Positions 1-38,106 of a stretch of DNA of 38,106 bases are shown in pieces. The first letter of the stretch is position 1, and the number at the start of each line of letters is the position of its first letter. The notes under the pieces are model-generated. The model did not search any database. It was not told where the DNA came from and worked only from the letters and a program-made list of their open reading frames with translations. The translations under genes were made by a program, and so were the position numbers. This DNA is from a bacterium (GTDB lineage: Bacteria; Hydrothermota; 32-111), in contig JBFXGO010000023.1 in the NCBI GenBank assembly GCA_050239825.1, positions 1-38,106 on the forward strand. The letters are read 5' to 3'.

Positions 1-29
1 TTGTGAATGTCTATTCCGCCGTACAGCAT
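1..29 (-). CDS. 5' end of an IS110-family DEDD transposase/recombinase (runs off the window start)
   Basis: Reverse complement of 1-29 reads ATG CTG TAC GGC GGA ATA GAC ATT CAC AA = MLYGGIDIH(K/N), resembling the IS110 N-terminal GID motif. AGGAGG Shine-Dalgarno at 40-35. Only 9 codons are visible and the ORF track does not list it. Confidence 0.8.
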
Positions 30-110
30 ATAAACCTCCTTGTTTTCTTGCAATTCTATTACCACTTAAATAAAATCGCAAGAACTTAGACACTCTTTCA
101 TTATATGCTT
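1..110 (-). mobile_element. Left end of an IS110-family (IS1111-type) insertion sequence
   Basis: Minus strand reads AAGCA-TATAAT-GAAAGAGTGTC, then a hairpin, AGGAGG and ATG. The 12-mer GACACTCTTTCA (89-100) is a perfect inverted repeat of TGAAAGAGTGTC (37993-38004). A terminal -10 box beside a sub-terminal IR is typical of IS1111 left ends. Confidence 0.8.
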
Positions 111-116
111 GACATC

Positions 117-145
117 TTGACATTTTAGAAGTGAAGTAGTATAAA
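117..145 (+). promoter_or_regulatory. Near-consensus sigma70 promoter TTGACA-17-TATAAA
   Basis: TTGACA at 117-122, 17-bp spacer, TATAAA at 140-145. Predicted start around 151-152. Confidence 0.65.
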
Positions 146-150
146 AAGGC

Positions 151-284
151 AAATGAGTAGAGCGAGAATAAAGTGTGAGAGCTCCTATCATAAGCCCTGG
201 CAGATGATGGCGGTGGGTAACATCTTAATTAGAAGGGAAATGCATTGAAAAGACAAAGTTTTGACTTGTCAACATTCCAATATG
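151..284 (+). ncRNA. Candidate structured non-coding RNA, possibly an IS110 right-end NCR/bridge-RNA-like remnant
   Basis: Follows the promoter at 117-145. Hairpins TAGAGC/GCTCCTA (158-187), ATCAT..GCC/GGC..ATGAT (187-208) and GACAAAGT/ACTTGTC (252-270). The family assignment rests on recalled resemblance only. Confidence 0.35.
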
Positions 285-662
285 ACAGAAGAATATTATC
301 GCGGGGAATATAGTACTCAATCACAGAGACTGAAGGCATGGAATTATGTATGGGGAGGATATTATTTCATAACCATTTACACAAAAAACAGAAAAGAGTA
401 TTTCGGGAGAATTGAGTCAGCAGGGATGCATTTAAATGAAATGGGGAAAATCGTACGAAACAATTGGTTGGAAATACCTTGTTATTTCGATAATGCAAGG
501 ATTGATGAATATATTGTCATGCCGAATCATCTACATGGAATAATAATGTTAGATGACGAAAAAGAGAACAATGAAAATAATGTAGAGACGTTGCAATGCA
601 ATGCCTCTGCAAAACACGCCAATATCATAAATAGTCAAACGGAAATGAAATATCGATTTTGA
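282..662 (+). pseudogene. Truncated REP-associated tyrosine transposase (RAYT, Y1/IS200-like)
   Basis: RLKAWNY..GYYFITI..KNR and the HUH motif MPNHLHGII are typical of RAYT/TnpA_REP. The ORF stops before the C-terminal catalytic Tyr region (WQ..YDHIIR). ATG at 282 is preferred over TTG at 261. Confidence 0.8.
582..610. repeat. GTAG-type REP palindrome inside the RAYT ORF
   Basis: GTAGAGACGTTGCA-A-TGCAATGCCTCTGC is an imperfect palindrome starting with GTAG, translated as VETLQCNASA. Confidence 0.7.
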
Positions 663-21746: not shown

Positions 21747-22149
21747 TTTCAGATGGGTCTCTCTGCCTGCAAGGGATTCTAAACCGATTATAAAACTAAC
21801 TGCAGTTTTGGGATTCTTTTTGATGCTTCTCATAGGTTTTGTTGAGCTTTCCTGGGTTGGCATGATTGTCTCTGTAATTGTTTCAGCGATAGTTTATCTT
21901 CAATTTATATTCCCTACAACATTCACAATAAAAGAGAAGACGATTCTCGTTGAATTTTTATTTACTAAGAGAGAGTATGAATTTTCAAGATTCAAATCAT
22001 TCTATAACGACAACACAGGAGTGCTCCTATCTCCGTTCCTAAAACCCAGCCGTCTTGAGAATTTCCGCGGCTTGTATATCCGCTATGGCAACGAAGACAA
22101 AGATAAAATTATCAATTTGATAAAAAACAGGTTTAGGGACGGTGGTTGA
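21739..22149 (+). CDS. Hypothetical membrane protein (2 TM plus PH-like soluble domain)
   Basis: Two hydrophobic helices, then GVLLSPF..PSRLENFRG. The stop codon lies inside the downstream inverted repeat. Confidence 0.75.
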   Translation: MDNFRWVSLPARDSKPIIKLTAVLGFFLMLLIGFVELSWVGMIVSVIVSAIVYLQFIFPTTFTIKEKTILVEFLFTKREYEFSRFKSFYNDNTGVLLSPFLKPSRLENFRGLYIRYGNEDKDKIINLIKNRFRDGG

Positions 22150-22347
22150 AATAGTTGAAGTTTATCCTTGTAATCGTTCAAATTGCTCTGTTAATAATCG
22201 TTTCAGGAAAATAAACAATTATTTTAAGGTTCTTAGCAATATAATCATTTTGTCAAATTGCACAGCACATCGAATTATAATAAGTGAGTGATAATAATAT
22301 TTTCAGAAGCATTTTTGTCACTTCAACTATTTCAACCACCGTCCCTA
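22134..22347. mobile_element. MITE-like non-autonomous element with perfect 28-bp terminal inverted repeats
   Basis: TAGGGACGGTGGTTGAAATAGTTGAAGT (22134-22161) and its exact reverse complement (22320-22347) enclose an AT-rich non-coding interior. The outer TA could be a target duplication. Confidence 0.75.
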
Positions 22348-31340: not shown

Positions 31341-34300
31341 GTGAAAAGAAAAGGAGTTCTACTGTTATTAGCTGTCTTAATTGGCATTATAATCAATGCC
31401 GCTCAATATCCAACAATTTATGTGAATGGCCAGAAAGGAGAAGGATGCTGTTTGAAAAAGAATTATGATTGGCTTGGTAACTTTACAGGATATTCAGGAG
31501 GCTGGACAACATGGTATCCTTTAGATAACAATGGCAATTTAAAGAACAGCACAGTTATGACTATAATAGATTCGTTGAATTATGATGGCTATTTCCTCTA
31601 CAGAAGATAACACTATATATAATTATTGTTTTTACGACAAGCTTGATGCCTCTGACAAAACAATTCCAGGAGTAATTTCCTTATCAGATGAAGAAGAGGA
31701 AGTATATTTTTATCATAAAGAAATTGATTGTCAAACTTATACTGCTGCAGGTCAGTCCGTAATACGTGATACAATAATTGATTACGTGTGGTTTTCAGCT
31801 TTAGAGCTTTATGGTTTTCCGACTCAACCATCAAATTATGATTCTGTAAGATTATATCCAAGGTATCTTCTTGGTATTGATTCAATAACGCATTATAGTG
31901 CAAATAAAAAATATTATTATGTTGATTCCAGAGGCAGGGAGTATAAAAAAAGTTGGTATGCAAACAAATGGGCAGAGAATTTAGCAAAATTCATTGACGA
32001 AGTAAGAAAATCAACAGGTGCACAGAAGGTTAATTTAGTATGTCATTCAATGGGAGGAGTTGTAGCTAGAGTTGCTTTAGCTGGATATAATTGCAAGTAT
32101 AAAGTTGATAAACTACTTACCTTAGGAACTCCTCATAAGACATATAATATTGAAGATTTTGAGGAGGTGTGGAGTTTATTGAATAAAATATTTGGATCGA
32201 TGGAAGAGTGGATGGAAAATGGTGAGTTAGCTGAATTAGGTGTTAGACCTTTTCAAGGCAAAGAACCGCTTTTCACTGATTTGAAGTATAACTCAAAACA
32301 TGATAAAGTTGGCACTTTTCACCAACTATTAGAACGGATTGAAGAAGAGAAGTATGTCTTCTCATTCGTAGAAATAAGTACTATTGCTGGTTGTAGGCGA
32401 GGACCAATTACGAATAATAGTTTATTGCCAAACAGTGATGGATTTGTTCCATTAGCTAATGCCACCTTAGATTTTGCAGAGTATAAACCTATAATTTTTG
32501 CAAGTCATTCGATGGGAGGTATTACTAGTTTTGATAATGAAAGAAAATATGAGCTTTCATTACCTTCTGCAACATTTTCAAGCGAGTTTACAAAGAGGTG
32601 GATTTACGATGATACAAGAGTGTTATATAGGGGTGATCCAGAAGATATTAGTGCCGCTTTTTCATTTGTTGGTAACCCAGAAACTGGGTATTTATCAAGA
32701 AGTATACGTGTAAATATTCTTGGAATTGATTCTTATGAAGGAATATTATCATTACAAGTTCAAACTGTAGTTTCTCCAGATATTGGAATGGATAATGAAG
32801 CGACAGGTACCCCTGCAAAAGGATATGATGTTCAAACGATTATTGATAACAATCGTGATCTTTCTATACTAAGAGGTGCTCCAGTATATATGAAAACACA
32901 TGAACTTGATAATCAGATGATTGACAATACTGATACTTATTATTCAAGAATATGGCTTTACGATATGAATGGTATGATTTCGGGCAATTTTTACCAACAC
33001 GAGCATAGATTTGAGACGCATTTGTGGGAAAATGTTCCAGAACCCTATGTATCAATTAACTACACTATTCTTCAGGCATTTGATAACAATACCAATACTA
33101 TTAGTTGGGAGACAAATGATTATGCAGTGCATACTACATTGCAGTATCTGGATCTCGCAGGGAACACCGTTATATTACTGAATGAGGATGGTCAATCAAG
33201 TTCCTATTTATGGGAAAATATACCTCCTATGTCGGCTAAAGGAGGTTGGACAGAAACTAAATTTGTCAACTTCACAGTTGTTTATAATTTAGACGATTAT
33301 GGTTCTAAAATATCAACGACAAGGCAATTACCTGTTAACACACCAAATTGGAGTCCTGTCAACCTTGCAACGTTGAGTTCTGATGAGATTTCTATCTCAC
33401 TTGAATGGGATGTTAAATATGAAGCGCAGAATATATTATTATATAGAAATGGCTCACTTATTGTAACGCTGGGTGGAGGTGTAACTTCTTTCGAAGATGA
33501 AAATTTTGTTCGAGGTGAAATTAACCATTATGAGGTAAAAGCTAAATATGGTGAACTTATAAGTATTAATGACGATGAATCAAACATCCTTGATGTATAT
33601 GGTATACCAGCAAATACACCTAAACCATATCCTTTAGCGAATTTTAACGAAAACAAAACAGAACTTAATGTAAAATGGATTGACAATTCCGATGTTGAAA
33701 CGGGATATGTTCTTTCTGTTATACCGAATGGTGGGACAACGACAAACTATAGAATTACCACAATTGCTGATACTTTATCCTACCAAGTACCAATTCCAAC
33801 AGTAGCAGGTGAAGGTGATTTATATATTGCCGCAGTTGGGCAAAATAACATTGTTTCAAACAGACGTATACATTATTCTTATTGTGTATGTGATGGACTG
33901 CCATTTAGCTCTGTTAATCCATTCCCTATAACTCATAAGAAGGGAAATCTATCATATAATAATGGGAAGTATTTTATTTCATCAATCAGACAATATAGTA
34001 CAGTCTTTGATGTTTTAAGTATTGAAGAATTTGATGGAAACTCAAAAGAAGTTATCTTTTCTGAATATTGCAATTCAGTGCAAGAGGAAAATATTGTAGC
34101 ATCACCTAATCAGGATGTAGTTATTTATGCGGAGAAAAATGCTGAAGACTTTCTTAATGTATTATATGAAAATGAATTAGGAAACTGGCAAAAAACAACG
34201 GTTGCTATTGATGGATTTATTGATTGGGATCAAAGTGTTGAAACTATTAAACTCCATTCACTAATAGTAAAAGATGGAATCTATTATTTATTGATAAGTA

Positions 34301-37300
34301 GAGAGGTCCTGAATACATGGTCTATGTCGACCTTTGGAAACAAGTTGGCTATTTTGAAGATTACCAATACAAGTGGGCAATTTGCAATACAGACTTCAAG
34401 AGAACTATTATCCAGTACATTAGCAGATCGAGTGTATTATGAAGGTAGTTTAAAACTCCTTTCAGATGGTCGAATTGGAGTGACATATAATTCTCAAGAA
34501 TATCCATATGATGATAACTATACAGGTTTAGTTATAAAAACATTTGATGCAAATATGGGGGATGAGAAGCAAATAATTTCTCCTGTAGTAACAAGCAATC
34601 ACGAAACAGCAGATTTCGATATCATAAGTGATAAAGCTAAGGTGCTCTTGAGTAGGTCAACTTCAGATGCAAATATTATTAAACTTAAAACTTTCAACTT
34701 TAATGTTGCTAATAGTGTGTGGAGTCCTGCAGATAGTAACATTGTAGATAGCAGACTAGTGAGCAGTGGCGAATATCTAGGTAACCCAAGTGTAATATAC
34801 AGCAATAATGGGTTGTTCTTATCATGGACTTATAATAACAGCAGTTATCAGGGGATTGTGAATTACAAGACTGTCAATAGTTCTGGAGTCCTAAGCGCTA
34901 ATAAGACTGCATTGTCTTTGAATAAAAATATAACCGATTATGCAATACAAAACCAAGACGGATTAATCAAGATTATTGCTCAATATTTGGACGAGGAAAT
35001 TACCACGGGAACATACATGCTCTCAGAAATAAGTCCATCCTATAACGAAATAGCTTTAAATTTGAATAATACTTTTTATGGTTATTCAGATGAAACTATT
35101 AACCTCACTGCTGAAGACATTTTCACAGGAGAACCAATAACCAATGCGGCTGTAACAGTTACAAACAATGCCGATTTTAGTTATTCAGGAGTTACTGATG
35201 CAACTGGATCAATTAGCATACCATATTATACTGAATCTGATAATGATATGGTAGTTACCGTTGATAAAGAGTATTATCAGAAAAAGGTTATACAAGAGAA
35301 TGTAACGATACATAATATGAATGTTTCACAACCGAGTGAATTACCTGTATTAACTACAAAAGCTCTGAATTTTAAGGTTACTGTTTCAACTGGAGGACTT
35401 CCAAAAGCTAATGAAATTCCACTTTCAGGAGCTATCATTACACTTCAGAGTACAGATATATCATTCACTGGTATTACCAATCTATCAGGTTCTGTCAGTT
35501 GTACTAAAAAAACCTCATATACAACTCCAATAAGCGTAACAATAACGAAAGACAGGTACAGAACTTACGAAGCAGAGATATATCCATATATGTGGTCAAC
35601 AACAAATGAGGCTTTGGGAGAAAACAACCAAACACATATGGTAAGAAAACCAGCTACAAACATTTTAGGCATCATATATTCAGATGGTGACAGTATTGTT
35701 TATGGTTATAGCAATGATTTGGGAAAAATATGGTACTTACAGAAGATAGGCAAAGGTACAATGCCGACTATGGTTAGAAGATCAAACGGTATCACTGCGT
35801 TGTGGAAGAATGGACAGATGCTTGAATATGCCACAATGTCATCACCATGGTCGCCAGTTGATACAGTTATTTCACCAGCGTATTCCGTATCTGAACCAAA
35901 TCTATTCAAACATCCAGATCCAGCCAATGATTCACTCTTTGCATGCGTGATAGAGAGTAGACAGGTTCAAACATGCGGAGATTATATACTTGCTACTTGG
36001 TATGATGTTCTTGTAGAAAGCATGACTTCTGAGGTGATTGTACCGTATACTGGTGATGAAGATGATAATTCAGTAATTCCGAATAAGCAACCAGTTGTTG
36101 GCAAGTATTTAGCTTCAAATAAATACTATAATATGATTTCTTTTATTAGTTCAAATAATCAACTAATTACAAAACTCCAAAATCTTATGTATCCAAATTA
36201 TAAGATTCCATTTGTTGTATCAAATGACAATCAAATTGTCTCAAATTCCTCAATAGATGTATACGGTAACACAACATCATTCACATGGTCGGCTGATAAT
36301 TTATCATCATCTGAGATATGGAGGAGAAAGCTTGTTGACGGAAATTTCTCAGATGCCGAAAGAGTTGATAATATAACTGGATTTAATTCAAATCCTAAAG
36401 TCAAAGATAACTTCCTATACGGTTTTGTGAACGATGCAAAAAGGATAGTGACAACGCCTAACATAAGTGATGAAAATGCAACCTTAGTGATTGAGGAAGC
36501 GGAAGATTCATTATTTAATTTTGATTTTGTAGTTAAAAAGACTTTGATTGATGCAGATGCCTTTTTTGTGTTATCCGAAGGTTCTAATGGAAATTATCGT
36601 ATAAAAACGATGAGAGTAAATTATAGCGGTATTGCACAACCAAGAATAATTTCTGATCCTACGGATACTATTGTAGAGAATATTTTCAGCTCTCCAATCT
36701 ATGACTATGTCTCAGGAAGGCCTTTTGTCGAAAGAATGACTTATGATGCAATTGCATTGGATACTGTTCTAAATTACGATGTCAGATTGGTAGTATCCCA
36801 AACAAATCCAGTCAGACCTCAGGTGCTTATGTTTGACACAACAGTCATAGATGTAATTTATGGAACACCAAATACAGTAGATACTTTGCAATATACAGTA
36901 CCAAAGGAACTATATACAGATGGTGAATTTATGATTACACTGGACAGGTTAAGAGGAAACCCTAATAGAACTGCACAGATAGCCATTTATGAGTATGAGA
37001 CTGACTCGGCGGAAGGAACCATTGCAGATGATGACAAGATAAAGAAGCTTATATTTAAGCCTCAGATGCCTAATCAGCAATTTGAATATTATTTGGCTTC
37101 TGGACTCGAGTTTGGTAATGAGTTGATTAAATTCTCACTTGCAGAACAAGGTGAAGTCACTTTAAACTTATTTGATGTCTCTGGAAGATGCATCGGAGAT
37201 TTAGCATCAGGAGCATTTAATTCTGGTGTACATTACGCAAACTTACCAAAGGGCTTGTCTTCAGGGGTATATTTTGTTAAAATGGAGGCAGGAGGTCAGA

Positions 37301-37332
37301 CATTTATAGAAAAGATTGTAAGGATCAAATAG
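31341..37332 (+). pseudogene. Large secreted alpha/beta-hydrolase multidomain protein with T9SS/FlgD-like C-terminal tail, split by a frameshift near 31582-31610
   Basis: 31341-31610 has AGGAGG, GTG start, a signal peptide and YPTIYVNG. The overlapping +1-frame ORF 31582-37332 lacks a signal peptide but has NLVCHSMGG, LGTPH, SDGFVP, Fn3/Ig-like and propeller-like segments, and LSSGVYFVKM..KIVRIK. Confidence 0.7.
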
Positions 37333-37359: not shown

Positions 37360-38009
37360 ATAAAACAGCTTGGATCATTTTATGCCTATTAGTGGCAAAT
37401 ATTTTGCTTGCAGACAGATTTATAAACATAGATTATATTTATGATGGTGTATCTGGAGATCAGAGAGTGAATTCTCCCAAATGTGTTGACGTTAATAATA
37501 ATGGAATAGTTGATTTAGTTTTAAGTTACTCTGATTTAGATTCATCATCAATCAGATTTTATGAATTTGATGGAGATTCTTTTGTGATGATGTATCAGTA
37601 TAAGGATACTGGAATATTAGCATTAAATGGTATAGGCGATTATGACTCTGACGGATTATACGAGATGTTAATATTTTTTACATCTCACCTAGCTATAGCC
37701 ACATTAGAACAACCCGATTCATTTTCATATCCTACAGGGATTACATGGATGTCAGATACAATATGGCAGTGCTCAAATTGCCTTGGTTCAAGCAATAAAT
37801 TTAGGAATGATTCAATAGATATAATATATGGAAATGGTAATCCATTAATTAGTACTCCTTCGATACCAAAAGGGTGGTATTACATGACTTGTACAGGTGA
37901 CGATTATTATGAACTACTCAACACTTATGTTCCAGACAGTGTAGGTCCGAGAGCTATGGATGTGGGAGATATTGACAATGACGGTGCTTCTTTGAAAGAG
38001 TGTCAATAG
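37360..38009 (+). pseudogene. FG-GAP/VCBS repeat protein, disrupted by the IS right end and lacking a start codon
   Basis: Repeats DVNNNGIVDLV, GDYDSDGLYEM and GDIDNDGA. The last codons (SLKECQ*) come from the IS end. The in-frame signal peptide KTAWIILCLLVANILLA (from 37362) is preceded by CAT rather than ATG. Confidence 0.72.
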
Positions 38010-38106
38010 GATAATCGATAATTCTCCTTTTTTCAATTAAAGAACTTAATTACTTGCAAAAGACCCGATAATGATATAAAATTAATTATGCTTCTTTAGA
38101 TGGCCT
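37985..38106 (-). mobile_element. Right end and 3' non-coding region of an IS110-family (IS1111-type) element
   Basis: Minus strand ends TTGACA-CTCTTTCA-AAG-AAGCA. The 12-bp IR matches 89-100 and the core AAGCA matches 106-110. It truncates the FG-GAP ORF. Confidence 0.8.
38061..38106 (-). ncRNA. Candidate donor-binding loop of a bridge RNA / seekRNA (partial; the 5' part is outside the window)
   Basis: Minus strand AGGCC-ATCT-AAAGAAGC-ATAA(TTAATT)TTAT-A-TCATTAT-CG-GGTCT. Closing stem AGGCC/GGTCT and an inner hairpin. AAAGAAGCA is identical to the element right end and TCATTAT is complementary to the left-end ATAATGA. Confidence 0.6.

What the first reader, a model, noticed from the sequence alone, without database searches (positions are those of the whole stretch)
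37985..38106. Both window ends appear to be halves of one IS110/IS1111-type element whose circle junction rebuilds a consensus promoter
Seen: on the minus strand the right edge ends ...TTGACACTCTTTCAAAG-AAGCA (38006-37985). The left edge begins AAGCA-TATAATGAAAGAGTGTC (110-89) and leads to AGGAGG and MLYGGIDIH. The ends share a perfect 12-bp sub-terminal IR and a 5-nt core. Joining them at the core gives TTGACA-16-TATAAT. Established: IS1111-group elements have sub-terminal IRs, make no target duplication and form a promoter on circularisation. Inference: two directly oriented copies of one RNA-guided recombinase element bracket this segment and probably broke the assembly. The ORF track shows none of this.
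Basis: partly seen in the sequence, partly recalled or inferred. Interest (0 to 1): 0.7.

Follow-up and report, generated by a model that had tools for sequence, protein, structure and literature searches.

The report
IS1111-type insertion sequence at contig ends
The two ends of this contig are the left and right ends of an ordinary, multi-copy, RNA-guided insertion sequence of the IS110/IS1111 family, which broke the genome assembly; it is a new member of a well-known kind.

Summary
The window is a whole contig. Its right edge (38106-37985, minus strand) is the last 122 nt of an insertion sequence (IS). Its left edge (110-1, minus strand) is the first 110 nt, with RBS and ATG.

- **Copies:** the same ends close seven other contig ends of this genome. 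The IS body is not assembled here.
- **Full element:** a same-genus genome and a metagenome contig hold the complete 1319-bp element. It has a 360-aa DEDD_Tnp_IS110 + Transposase_20 transposase, 12-bp sub-terminal inverted repeats and a 155-nt 3' non-coding region.
- **Two separate copies:** a sister genome has the gene at the right edge uninterrupted, and that gene continues on another contig of this genome.
- **Target:** empty sites carry one AAGCA. The usual target is a short repeat that flanks REP-type tyrosine-transposase genes.
- **Guide RNA:** the 3' end encodes a bridge/seekRNA-like RNA. Three of its four expected guide segments track their own targets and ends across relatives.
- **Promoter:** joining the ends at the core gives TTGACA-16-TATAAT.

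No circle junction and no RNA was observed. This is a new member of a known kind, of modest interest.

The parts
37985..38106 (-). Right end (RE) of the IS: its last 122 nt, corresponding to positions 1198-1319 of the 1319-bp element. It holds the 3' part of the non-coding guide-RNA region.
   Evidence: 95.9% identical to positions 1198-1319 of the full copy L013:1408-2726; the same sequence lies at five other contig ends.
38087..38097 (-). AAAGAAGCATA, a sense copy of the RE tip + core + first 2 nt of the LE. Candidate left-donor guide in the 3' side of the donor-binding loop.
   Evidence: 12-nt pairing to the bottom strand of the joined ends; this position matches its own RE tip in relatives, cognate mean 7.67 against 5.3 non-cognate, with 0 of 20000 permutations reaching the observed sum.
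38001..38006 (-). TTGACA, the -35 half of the promoter that would form at the circle junction.
   Evidence: Read directly. Promoter activity was not tested.
37993..38004 (-). Right sub-terminal inverted repeat, GACACTCTTTCA.
37985..37989 (-). Core AAGCA, the copy at the RE-flank junction.
   Evidence: empty sites carry a single AAGCA.
37392..37984 (+). 5' part of an FG-GAP-repeat gene cut by the IS at ...GAC AAT GAC GG|. The listed ORF runs on to 38009 through an IS-derived tail, ASLKECQ*.
   Evidence: One search lists the ORF. PF13517 at E 4e-5, 24.5 bits, below the cut-off of 26.9; the uninterrupted ortholog in G001 (L109) aligns to this flank at 1486-2090 and to the C64 flank at 2087-2686.
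1..110 (-). Left end (LE) of a second IS copy: core AAGCA 110-106, TATAAT 105-100, left sub-terminal inverted repeat 100-89, RBS 40-35, tnp start codon 29-27, then the first 9 codons.
   Evidence: 91.8% identical to positions 1-110 of the full copy.
111..126 (-). Inner part of the occupied target: a repeat motif of the form ...ATGTCAAGATGTC, followed by the core.
   Evidence: 12 uninterrupted sites in the genome have a tandem octamer + AAGCACCGTCCC.
261..662 (+). Truncated REP-type tyrosine-transposase-like ORF (133 aa) next to the occupied repeat.
   Evidence: NF047646 at E 2.5e-9, 37 bits, below the cut-off of 80, covering profile positions 6-88 of 146; no Pfam hit.

Best explanation
The window is a chromosomal contig whose two edges lie inside two separate copies, in the same orientation, of one ~1.32-kb insertion sequence. 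The element belongs to the IS1111 group of the IS110 family.

**Anatomy.** The element carries a 360-aa DEDD/Ser recombinase gene, 12-bp sub-terminal inverted repeats and a 3' guide RNA (bridge RNA / seekRNA).

**Proposed mechanism.**
1. The element excises as a circle in which RE and LE meet at one AAGCA.
2. This creates TTGACA-16-TATAAT, which drives tnp and the downstream RNA.
3. The RNA's first loop lies over the last 17 codons of tnp. It pairs with the top strand of AGCACCGTC and with the bottom strand of the left target half plus core.
4. The second loop carries a sense copy of the RE tip + core + LE start and holds the donor junction.
5. Recombination at the core inserts the element in one orientation and makes no target duplication.

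**Target.** The usual target is a short repeat, 8 bp in from its outer end, that also flanks REP-type tyrosine-transposase genes. Coding sequences that happen to contain GACGGTGCTT are hit as well.

**Shown:** anatomy, copies, empty sites, target motif, and co-variation of three of the four expected guide segments with their targets or ends.

**Inferred:** circle formation, promoter activity, RNA expression, and the chemistry. The inference follows IS621, ISEc11 and relatives.
For: **Ends and copy number**
- Ends and coordinates.
- The window is the whole contig C41.
- LE lies on 2 contig ends (C41, C64) and RE on 6 (C41, C9, C13, C28, C3, C23).
- No PF01548 match in the assembly.

**Full copies**
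- L013:1408-2726, 1319 bp, in a same-genus genome.
- L105, 98.8% identical to it, with both flanks.
- Pfam and NCBIfam hits.
- D7, E54, D94, D97 and S261-G262 are invariant in 26 homologs.

**Two copies, not one**
- The G001 ortholog L109 is contiguous across the C41 and C64 flanks.

**Target**
- AAGCACCGTC occurs 19 times: 6 RE junctions and 13 uninterrupted sites, 12 of these with the tandem-octamer motif.

**Guides (full copy)**
- GACGGTGCT is the reverse complement of AGCACCGTC.
- TACAAGTATA matches the left junction TACAAGCATA.
- Permutation tests on 9 relatives:
  - Right-target guide: 6.56 against 3.66, 1 of 20000 permutations. With the miss L028 added, 6.2 against 3.59, 0 of 20000.
  - Left-target guide: 8.0 against 3.99, 0 of 20000.
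  - Left-donor guide: 7.67 against 5.3, 0 of 20000.
- RNAalifold on 13 sequences keeps the loop-closing stem and a hairpin. 6 of 8 pairs show compensatory change.

**Expression logic**
- No promoter-like site on the IS strand inside the integrated element; 0 of the 5 sites found are on that strand.

**Family knowledge**
- PMC11187229 (sections read).
- PMC11208160 (passages read).
Against: - The IS body of this genome is not assembled. The transposase and the target-binding loop are therefore read from a 92-96% identical copy in another genome, not from the window.
- No circle junction and no empty-site contig appeared when contigs of 4 runs were laid on L105.
- The fourth expected guide (right donor) does not stand out: 5.44 against 4.81, 1223 of 20000 permutations.
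- One relative's own flank (L028) does not match its guide, with a best match of 3. Three others (L092, L029, L037) match weakly, at 4-5.
- The 9 relatives were picked by hand from 84 loci, and the guide windows were set by my own rule.
- The stretch between the two inverted repeats in the joined form is 13 nt. The 7 + 3 nt given for the IS1111 family would make 10.
- The LE variant in L106 has one extra C after the core.
Confidence: 0.9

Rival explanations
1. The contig is a small circular replicon holding a single IS copy, so both edges belong to the same copy.
For: The two edges are in the same orientation. The left flank of the LE together with the right flank of the RE would form an acceptable target.
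Against: - The gene cut at the right edge continues on contig C64, as shown by the uninterrupted ortholog in G001.
- The contig carries ftsZ (PF00091 at 163 bits) and a tRNA gene.
- Six RE-bearing contig ends exist.
Confidence: 0.02
2. In this genome the ends belong to short, transposase-less derivatives (miniature elements) rather than to full-length copies.
For: - No transposase body is in the assembly.
- A decayed, tnp-less copy of the 3' region exists at G000:C13:42801-42912.
- G001 holds LE-only fragments.
Against: - The LE on C64 reads on into the tnp frame for 14 codons.
- In other samples the element assembles as a contig of its own, 1257-1327 nt long, that stops at the IS ends. This is the usual fate of a multi-copy repeat.
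- Full copies exist in the same genus.
Confidence: 0.07
3. The element is a conventional terminal-repeat transposon that makes a 5-bp target duplication (AAGCA), and is not a core-sharing site-specific recombinase element.
For: Filled sites have AAGCA on both sides and empty sites have it once. A 5-bp duplication would look the same.
Against: - The encoded protein is an IS110-family DEDD recombinase.
- The repeats are sub-terminal.
- All 11 junctions seen in four sources carry the same pentamer. L106, with AAGCAC, is the exception.
- The RNA region contains the contiguous word AAAGAAGCATA, which spans RE tip, one core and LE start.
Confidence: 0.01

Closest known systems
IS1111-group elements with a demonstrated seekRNA: ISEc11, ISKpn4, ISPst6, ISPa11 (PMC11187229; sections 4, 6, 8, 9, 10 and 13 read)
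   Same: - DEDD transposase and 11-13-bp sub-terminal inverted repeats.
- Long non-coding region downstream of tnp.
- A segment complementary to the target's top strand lies 5' of the segment that matches the bottom strand, and the two overlap at the insertion point.
- A promoter forms at the circle junction, and there is no target duplication.
- ISPa11 also targets a REP sequence.
   Different: - The transposase is 360 aa, against 330-350 stated for the family.
- 13 nt lie between the inverted repeats in the joined form, against 7 + 3.
- The target-reading loop lies inside the last 17 codons of tnp.
- The sequence relation to these named elements was not measured, because no ISfinder set was on hand.
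IS621 and its bridge RNA (PMC11208160, passages read; PDB 8wt6)
   Same: - Two-loop RNA with left and right guides that read opposite strands, and a core shared by donor and target.
- REP-type targets.
- The recombinase family matches by profile at E 2e-20 over positions 187-333.
   Different: - IS621 belongs to the IS110 group: its RNA lies in the left end, upstream of tnp, and its sub-terminal repeats are only 2-3 bp.
- Here the RNA lies in the right end.
- The sequence match is distant: E 1.8e-11 for the single sequence, C-terminal domain only.
IS4321 / IS5075 (Partridge and Hall 2003; seen only as a title in a reference list)
   Same: IS1111-group elements that insert at a fixed position inside the terminal repeat of another mobile element.
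   Different: Their target is the 38-bp inverted repeat of Tn21-family transposons (recalled). Here the target is a repeat that flanks REP-type tyrosine-transposase genes.
ISPpu9 of Pseudomonas putida (PMC12288879; abstract seen in the listing)
   Same: It inserts into REP sequences, has a small-RNA gene downstream of tnp, and extra copies of that RNA gene lie elsewhere in the genome.
   Different: The host is unrelated. The one extra copy found here (G000:C13) is decayed and only 79% identical.

Membership tests
IS110 family (DEDD recombinase elements) | Transposase with DEDD_Tnp_IS110 and Transposase_20 domains | tested here: met
   PF01548 at 69.2 bits (cut-off 29) and PF02371 at 75.7 bits (cut-off 21.3). 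NF033542 at 216 bits (cut-off 140). These were tested on the full copy L013. The window itself holds only the first 9 codons.
IS110 family (DEDD recombinase elements) | Site- and orientation-specific insertion with no target duplication, and a core shared by donor and target | tested here: met
   - 13 uninterrupted sites have one AAGCA, and 6 RE junctions plus 2 LE junctions carry the same core.
- an orthologous empty site in G001.
- A 5-bp duplication cannot be told apart from this by sequence alone.
IS110 family (DEDD recombinase elements) | Circular intermediate whose junction forms a promoter | tested here: inconclusive
   The sequence gives TTGACA-16-TATAAT. No junction contig was seen in 4 runs. 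Promoter activity cannot be tested with these tools.
IS1111 group | Sub-terminal inverted repeats of 11-13 bp | tested here: met
   A perfect 12-bp repeat.
IS1111 group | The longer non-coding region lies downstream of tnp | tested here: met
   155 nt lie after the stop codon, against 81 nt before the ATG.
IS1111 group | Terminal extensions of 7 nt (left) and 3 nt (right) beyond the repeats | tested here: not met
   With one core, 13 nt lie between the repeats, where 7 + 3 would give 10. The relative L099 does give 10.
IS1111 group | C-terminal motif GL-P----S/TG | tested here: met
   GLAPSIHSSG is in the 360-aa protein. G253, L254, P256, S261 and G262 are invariant in 26 homologs.
IS1111 group | Transposase falls inside the IS1111 clade of a family tree | not tested
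   No set of ISfinder sequences was on hand. The best plasmid-borne match is 43% identical, an unnamed rhizobial element.
Bridge RNA / seekRNA | [quoted passage not shown] | tested here: met
   Right-target guide: 1 of 20000 permutations reach the observed sum, or 0 of 20000 with L028 included. Left-target guide: 0 of 20000.
Bridge RNA / seekRNA | Donor loop with guides for both halves of the joined ends | tested here: inconclusive
   The left-donor guide is supported (0 of 20000). The right-donor guide is not (1223 of 20000).
Bridge RNA / seekRNA | The RNA is made and binds the recombinase | not testable with these tools
   No RNA run is listed as a holder. No Rfam family matches.
REP / RAYT system (the target) | Repeats flank a REP-type tyrosine-transposase gene in inverted orientation | tested here: met
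   - G000:C5:4300-5153 and C14:63634-64522.
- Their ORFs match PF01797 at 43.9 and 47.2 bits (cut-off 23).
- They match NF047646 at 73 and 56.6 bits, below the cut-off of 80.
- Two homologs of the window's truncated ORF in G002 lack the motif nearby.
REP / RAYT system (the target) | Each repeat unit is an imperfect palindrome | not tested
   The units look like a tandem half-site plus a conserved end rather than a palindrome. No folding test was run.

The most novel reading that the evidence does not exclude
The two copies, in the same orientation, bracket 37.9 kb of chromosome (ftsZ, a tRNA gene, a 1916-aa secreted protein). The RE of one copy and the LE of the other face the segment.

The same RNA-guided recombinase could therefore act on this inner pair. 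It would loop the segment out as a circle carrying a rebuilt target and leave behind a chromosomal RE-LE junction with an active promoter. If so, the element would also be a tool for large, programmable rearrangements in this lineage, not only a gene disruptor.
Probability: 0.05. Interest if true: 0.5.

Novelty: new member of a known kind. Interest (0 to 1): 0.28.

Why it matters
For the genome, this explains at least 8 contig breaks. It links C41 to C64, and it shows two genes disrupted by the element.

For the field, it adds a natural IS1111-type element from an uncultured lineage with a readable set of guide-target pairs:
- twelve empty sites that carry the repeat motif;
- two off-target hits in coding DNA, both at the word GACGGTGCTT;
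- a target-reading loop that overlaps the end of the transposase gene, so retargeting would also change the protein's tail.

None of this alters what is known of the family.

Tried and rejected
- **Rfam:** no family matched, on the window (only a tRNA) or on the full IS at E up to 1.
- **Exact 24-nt LE pattern in genome contigs:** 0 hits.
- **Sequencing runs:** no RNA holder is listed.
- **Contigs of X1-X4 laid on L105:** no joints, so neither a circle junction nor an empty site was seen. The IS forms a contig of its own that ends at the IS boundaries.
- **Right-donor guide:** not distinguishable from background.
- **Hairpin AUGGC-GUUAG-GCCAU as a guide:** rejected, because its stem co-varies in relatives that share the same target.
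- **A second register for the core (TCAA):** rejected, because the empty sites fit only AAGCA.
- **Repeat as a sigma-70 or sigma-54 promoter:** considered by eye and dropped. No test was run.
- **Pfam on the window's ORF 261-659:** no hit. PDB by sequence: none.
- **Synteny search for the partner contig of the window's left edge:** nothing usable.
- **The repeat in the genome of the Elusimicrobia relative:** 10 against 5 control matches, so no clear enrichment.
- **tblastn against plasmids:** every match is below 60% identity, and no named close relative appeared.
- **Metagenome scan with the single protein:** only 3 near-identical loci and one distant one.

Full report
**The observation**

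The window is a complete contig, G000:C41.
- On its minus strand the right edge ends in TTGACACTCTTTCAAAGAAGCA at 38006-37985.
- The left edge starts with AAGCATATAATGAAAGAGTGTC at 110-89. AGGAGG follows at 40-35 and ATG at 29-27, opening MLYGGIDIH.
- The 12-mer TGAAAGAGTGTC occurs exactly twice in the window, in inverted orientation. Shuffles expect 0.01 matches.
- If the two edges are joined with a single AAGCA, TTGACA and TATAAT are 16 nt apart. I counted this on the printed sequence.

**What the ends belong to**

The ends are multi-copy within this genome.
- The 110-nt left end recurs at the end of contig C64.
- The 122-nt right end recurs at the ends of C9, C13, C28, C3 and, slightly diverged, C23.
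- The assembly has no DEDD_Tnp_IS110 match at all, so the body of the element is unassembled.

Full copies exist elsewhere.
- A same-genus genome (G002) holds a complete copy at L013:1408-2726. It is 1319 bp long, and the window's ends match it at 91.8% (LE) and 95.9% (RE).
- A metagenome contig, L105, holds a second complete copy with both flanks, 98.8% identical to the first.

The encoded protein is an IS110-family recombinase.
- It is 360 aa long.
- It has DEDD_Tnp_IS110 and Transposase_20 domains.
- It exceeds the cut-off of NCBIfam's 'IS110 family RNA-guided transposase', 216 bits against 140.
- It keeps D7, E54, D94, D97 and S261-G262, which are invariant among 26 homologs.
- It matches the IS621 and ISCro4 structures distantly.

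More than 1600 metagenomic homologs exist at E <= 1e-30. All plasmid-borne matches are below 60% identity.

**Two copies, not one**

- The ORF at 37392-38009 (+) is an FG-GAP-repeat gene that ends in an IS-derived tail.
- In the sister genome G001 the ortholog is uninterrupted.
- The window's flank aligns to L109:1486-2090. The flank of the LE on C64 aligns to L109:2087-2686.
- One IS copy therefore joins the window's right edge to C64. The copy at the window's left edge is a different one, in the same orientation.
- The contig carries ftsZ and a tRNA gene. A small circular replicon with a single copy is thus very unlikely.

**The target**

- All six right junctions continue with CCGTC, and four of them with CCGTCCCC.
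- AAGCACCGTC occurs 19 times in the genome. Six are the right junctions and 13 are uninterrupted.
- 12 of the 13 uninterrupted sites are preceded by a tandem octamer, such as ATGTCAAGATGTC or ATTTACAAATTTAC.
- The window's left flank is the inner half of such a site.
- Empty sites hold one AAGCA, so donor and target share this core, or part of it.

The motif belongs to a larger family.
- The family ends in CACCGTCCC[CT], with 56 exact sites. A slightly wider pattern gives 58 matches against 5 for the reversed control. It is similarly enriched in three relatives of the same family.
- Pairs of these units in inverted orientation bound ORF-less elements of about 212 bp. One lies in the window at 22135-22346.
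- Other pairs bound 854-bp and 889-bp elements that each encode a Y1_Tnp / REP-associated tyrosine-transposase-like protein.
- The window's ORF 261-662, next to the occupied site, is a truncated, weak match to the same NCBIfam model.

The usual target is therefore a REP-like repeat, cut 8 bp from its outer end. This is a habit known for the family: ISPa11 in PMC11187229, and the Tobes and Pareja title in the reference list seen.

Two of the six copies sit in coding DNA instead, both at the word GACGGTGCTT. One is the FG-GAP gene in the window. The other is a zinc-ribbon ORF on C23, cut at ...TDG|A.

**The guide RNA**

By the definitions in PMC11187229, the 12-bp sub-terminal repeats and the 155-nt region downstream of tnp are IS1111 hallmarks.

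In the full copy a conserved module starts inside tnp, at L013:2520. This is IS position 1113, 17 codons before the stop.
- It begins with GCCCUCU.
- GACGGUGCU follows, the exact reverse complement of AGCACCGTC.
- A hairpin comes next.
- UACAAGUAUA follows the hairpin. It is a sense copy of the left junction TACAAGCATA, with one U for C.
- AGGG closes the stem.

A second stem-loop follows. On the 3' side of its hairpin lies AAAGAAGCAUA, at window 38097-38087. This is a sense copy of the RE tip, one core and the first two LE bases.

I tested whether these positions track their own junctions in relatives.
- **Selection:** of 84 related loci (80, 4), I inspected 30 for the module. 13 had it. 9 had both junctions inside the locus and were used.
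- **Dropped:** L027 (degenerate), L028 (no LE), L030 (RE cut by the contig end), L031 (no LE), and L105 (near-identical to L013).

| Guide | Cognate mean | Non-cognate mean | Permutations reaching the observed sum |
|---|---|---|---|
| Right target | 6.56 | 3.66 | 1 of 20000 |
| Right target, with L028 (a miss, best match 3) | 6.2 | 3.59 | 0 of 20000 |
| Left target | 8.0 | 3.99 | 0 of 20000 |
| Left donor | 7.67 | 5.3 | 0 of 20000 |
| Right donor | 5.44 | 4.81 | 1223 of 20000 (not supported) |

Values are the longest Watson-Crick runs.

RNAalifold on 13 sequences keeps the loop-closing stem and the hairpin, and 6 of 8 pairs show compensatory change. The top-strand complement lies 5' of the bottom-strand match, and both overlap the core, as described for IS1111-type seekRNAs. 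No Rfam family matches.

**How it most likely works**

This follows established knowledge of IS621 and of ISEc11, ISKpn4 and ISPa11.
1. The element excises as a circle.
2. The junction supplies the only good promoter. None of the five promoter-like sites inside the integrated copy lies on the IS strand.
3. tnp and the downstream RNA are transcribed.
4. The RNA holds the donor junction and a target site together.
5. The recombinase exchanges strands at the core.

The anatomy, the empty and filled sites, and three of the four guides are shown here. The circle, the promoter activity and the RNA are inferred. No junction-spanning contig was seen, and no RNA run is listed.

**Differences from the textbook IS1111 form**

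- 13 rather than 10 nt lie between the inverted repeats in the joined form.
- The transposase is 360 aa, against 330-350.
- The target-reading loop lies over the 3' end of the coding sequence.

I did not search the papers for whether this overlap has been described. I make no claim that it is new.

**Verdict**

This is an unnamed member of a well-known family, and it explains the assembly breaks. Interest is modest.

Noticed in passing
window 22135-22346; G000:C5:4300-5153; G000:C14:63634-64522: A family of about 56 units ending in CACCGTCCC[CT]. Inverted pairs bound ORF-less elements of about 212 bp, and also elements of 854 and 889 bp that encode Y1_Tnp / REP-type tyrosine-transposase-like proteins with a C-terminal helix-turn-helix. 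The family is enriched in three relatives of the same family as well.
   Followed up: partly
window 261-662 (+): A 133-aa ORF, a weak and truncated match to the REP-associated tyrosine-transposase model (37 bits, profile positions 6-88 of 146). Full-length homologs of about 220 aa in G002 (L115, L118) have no such repeat nearby.
   Followed up: partly
G000:C13:42801-42912 (-), locus L121: A decayed copy, 79% identical, of the IS's 3' non-coding region with no transposase gene. It keeps AAAGAAGCAT and the outer stem, and a CCGTCCCC lies about 60 nt downstream. It may be an IS remnant or an orphan guide-RNA gene.
   Followed up: partly
G000:C23:1-400: A diverged RE (93.6%) cuts a zinc-ribbon ORF at ...ITDG|A. 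This is the same 10-nt word as in the FG-GAP gene, and both disrupted genes gain a similar IS-encoded tail: ASLKVCQ* here and ASLKECQ* in the FG-GAP gene.
   Followed up: partly
L106:900-970: A 96%-identical copy whose left junction reads AAGCAC before TATAAT, with one extra C after the core.
   Followed up: no
L027:1100-2500: A 65%-identical relative with an in-frame stop. It lacks the right inverted repeat and runs straight into a repeat unit, ...ATGTCACACTGTCAAGCACCGTCCCC. Its left flank ends in a similar word.
   Followed up: no
L038:2380-2440: A 45%-identical relative in an Elusimicrobia record has the same right target half, CCGTCCCC, and a matching guide, GGACGGUU. The motif is not clearly enriched in that genome (10 against 5).
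   Followed up: partly
G000:C14:11149-11251; also C16 and C39: Tandem arrays with a period of about 90 bp. Each unit ends in the AACCACCGTCCCT repeat and carries a GC-rich segment.
   Followed up: no
G001 loci L019, L022, L023: LE-only fragments of the IS (positions 1 to about 130-166, 83-93% identical), with no right end found in that genome.
   Followed up: no
window 31582-37332 (+): A 1916-aa protein with an alpha/beta-hydrolase-like N-terminal part and a weak Por_Secre_tail match at its C-terminus (27.8 bits, cut-off 27).
   Followed up: partly
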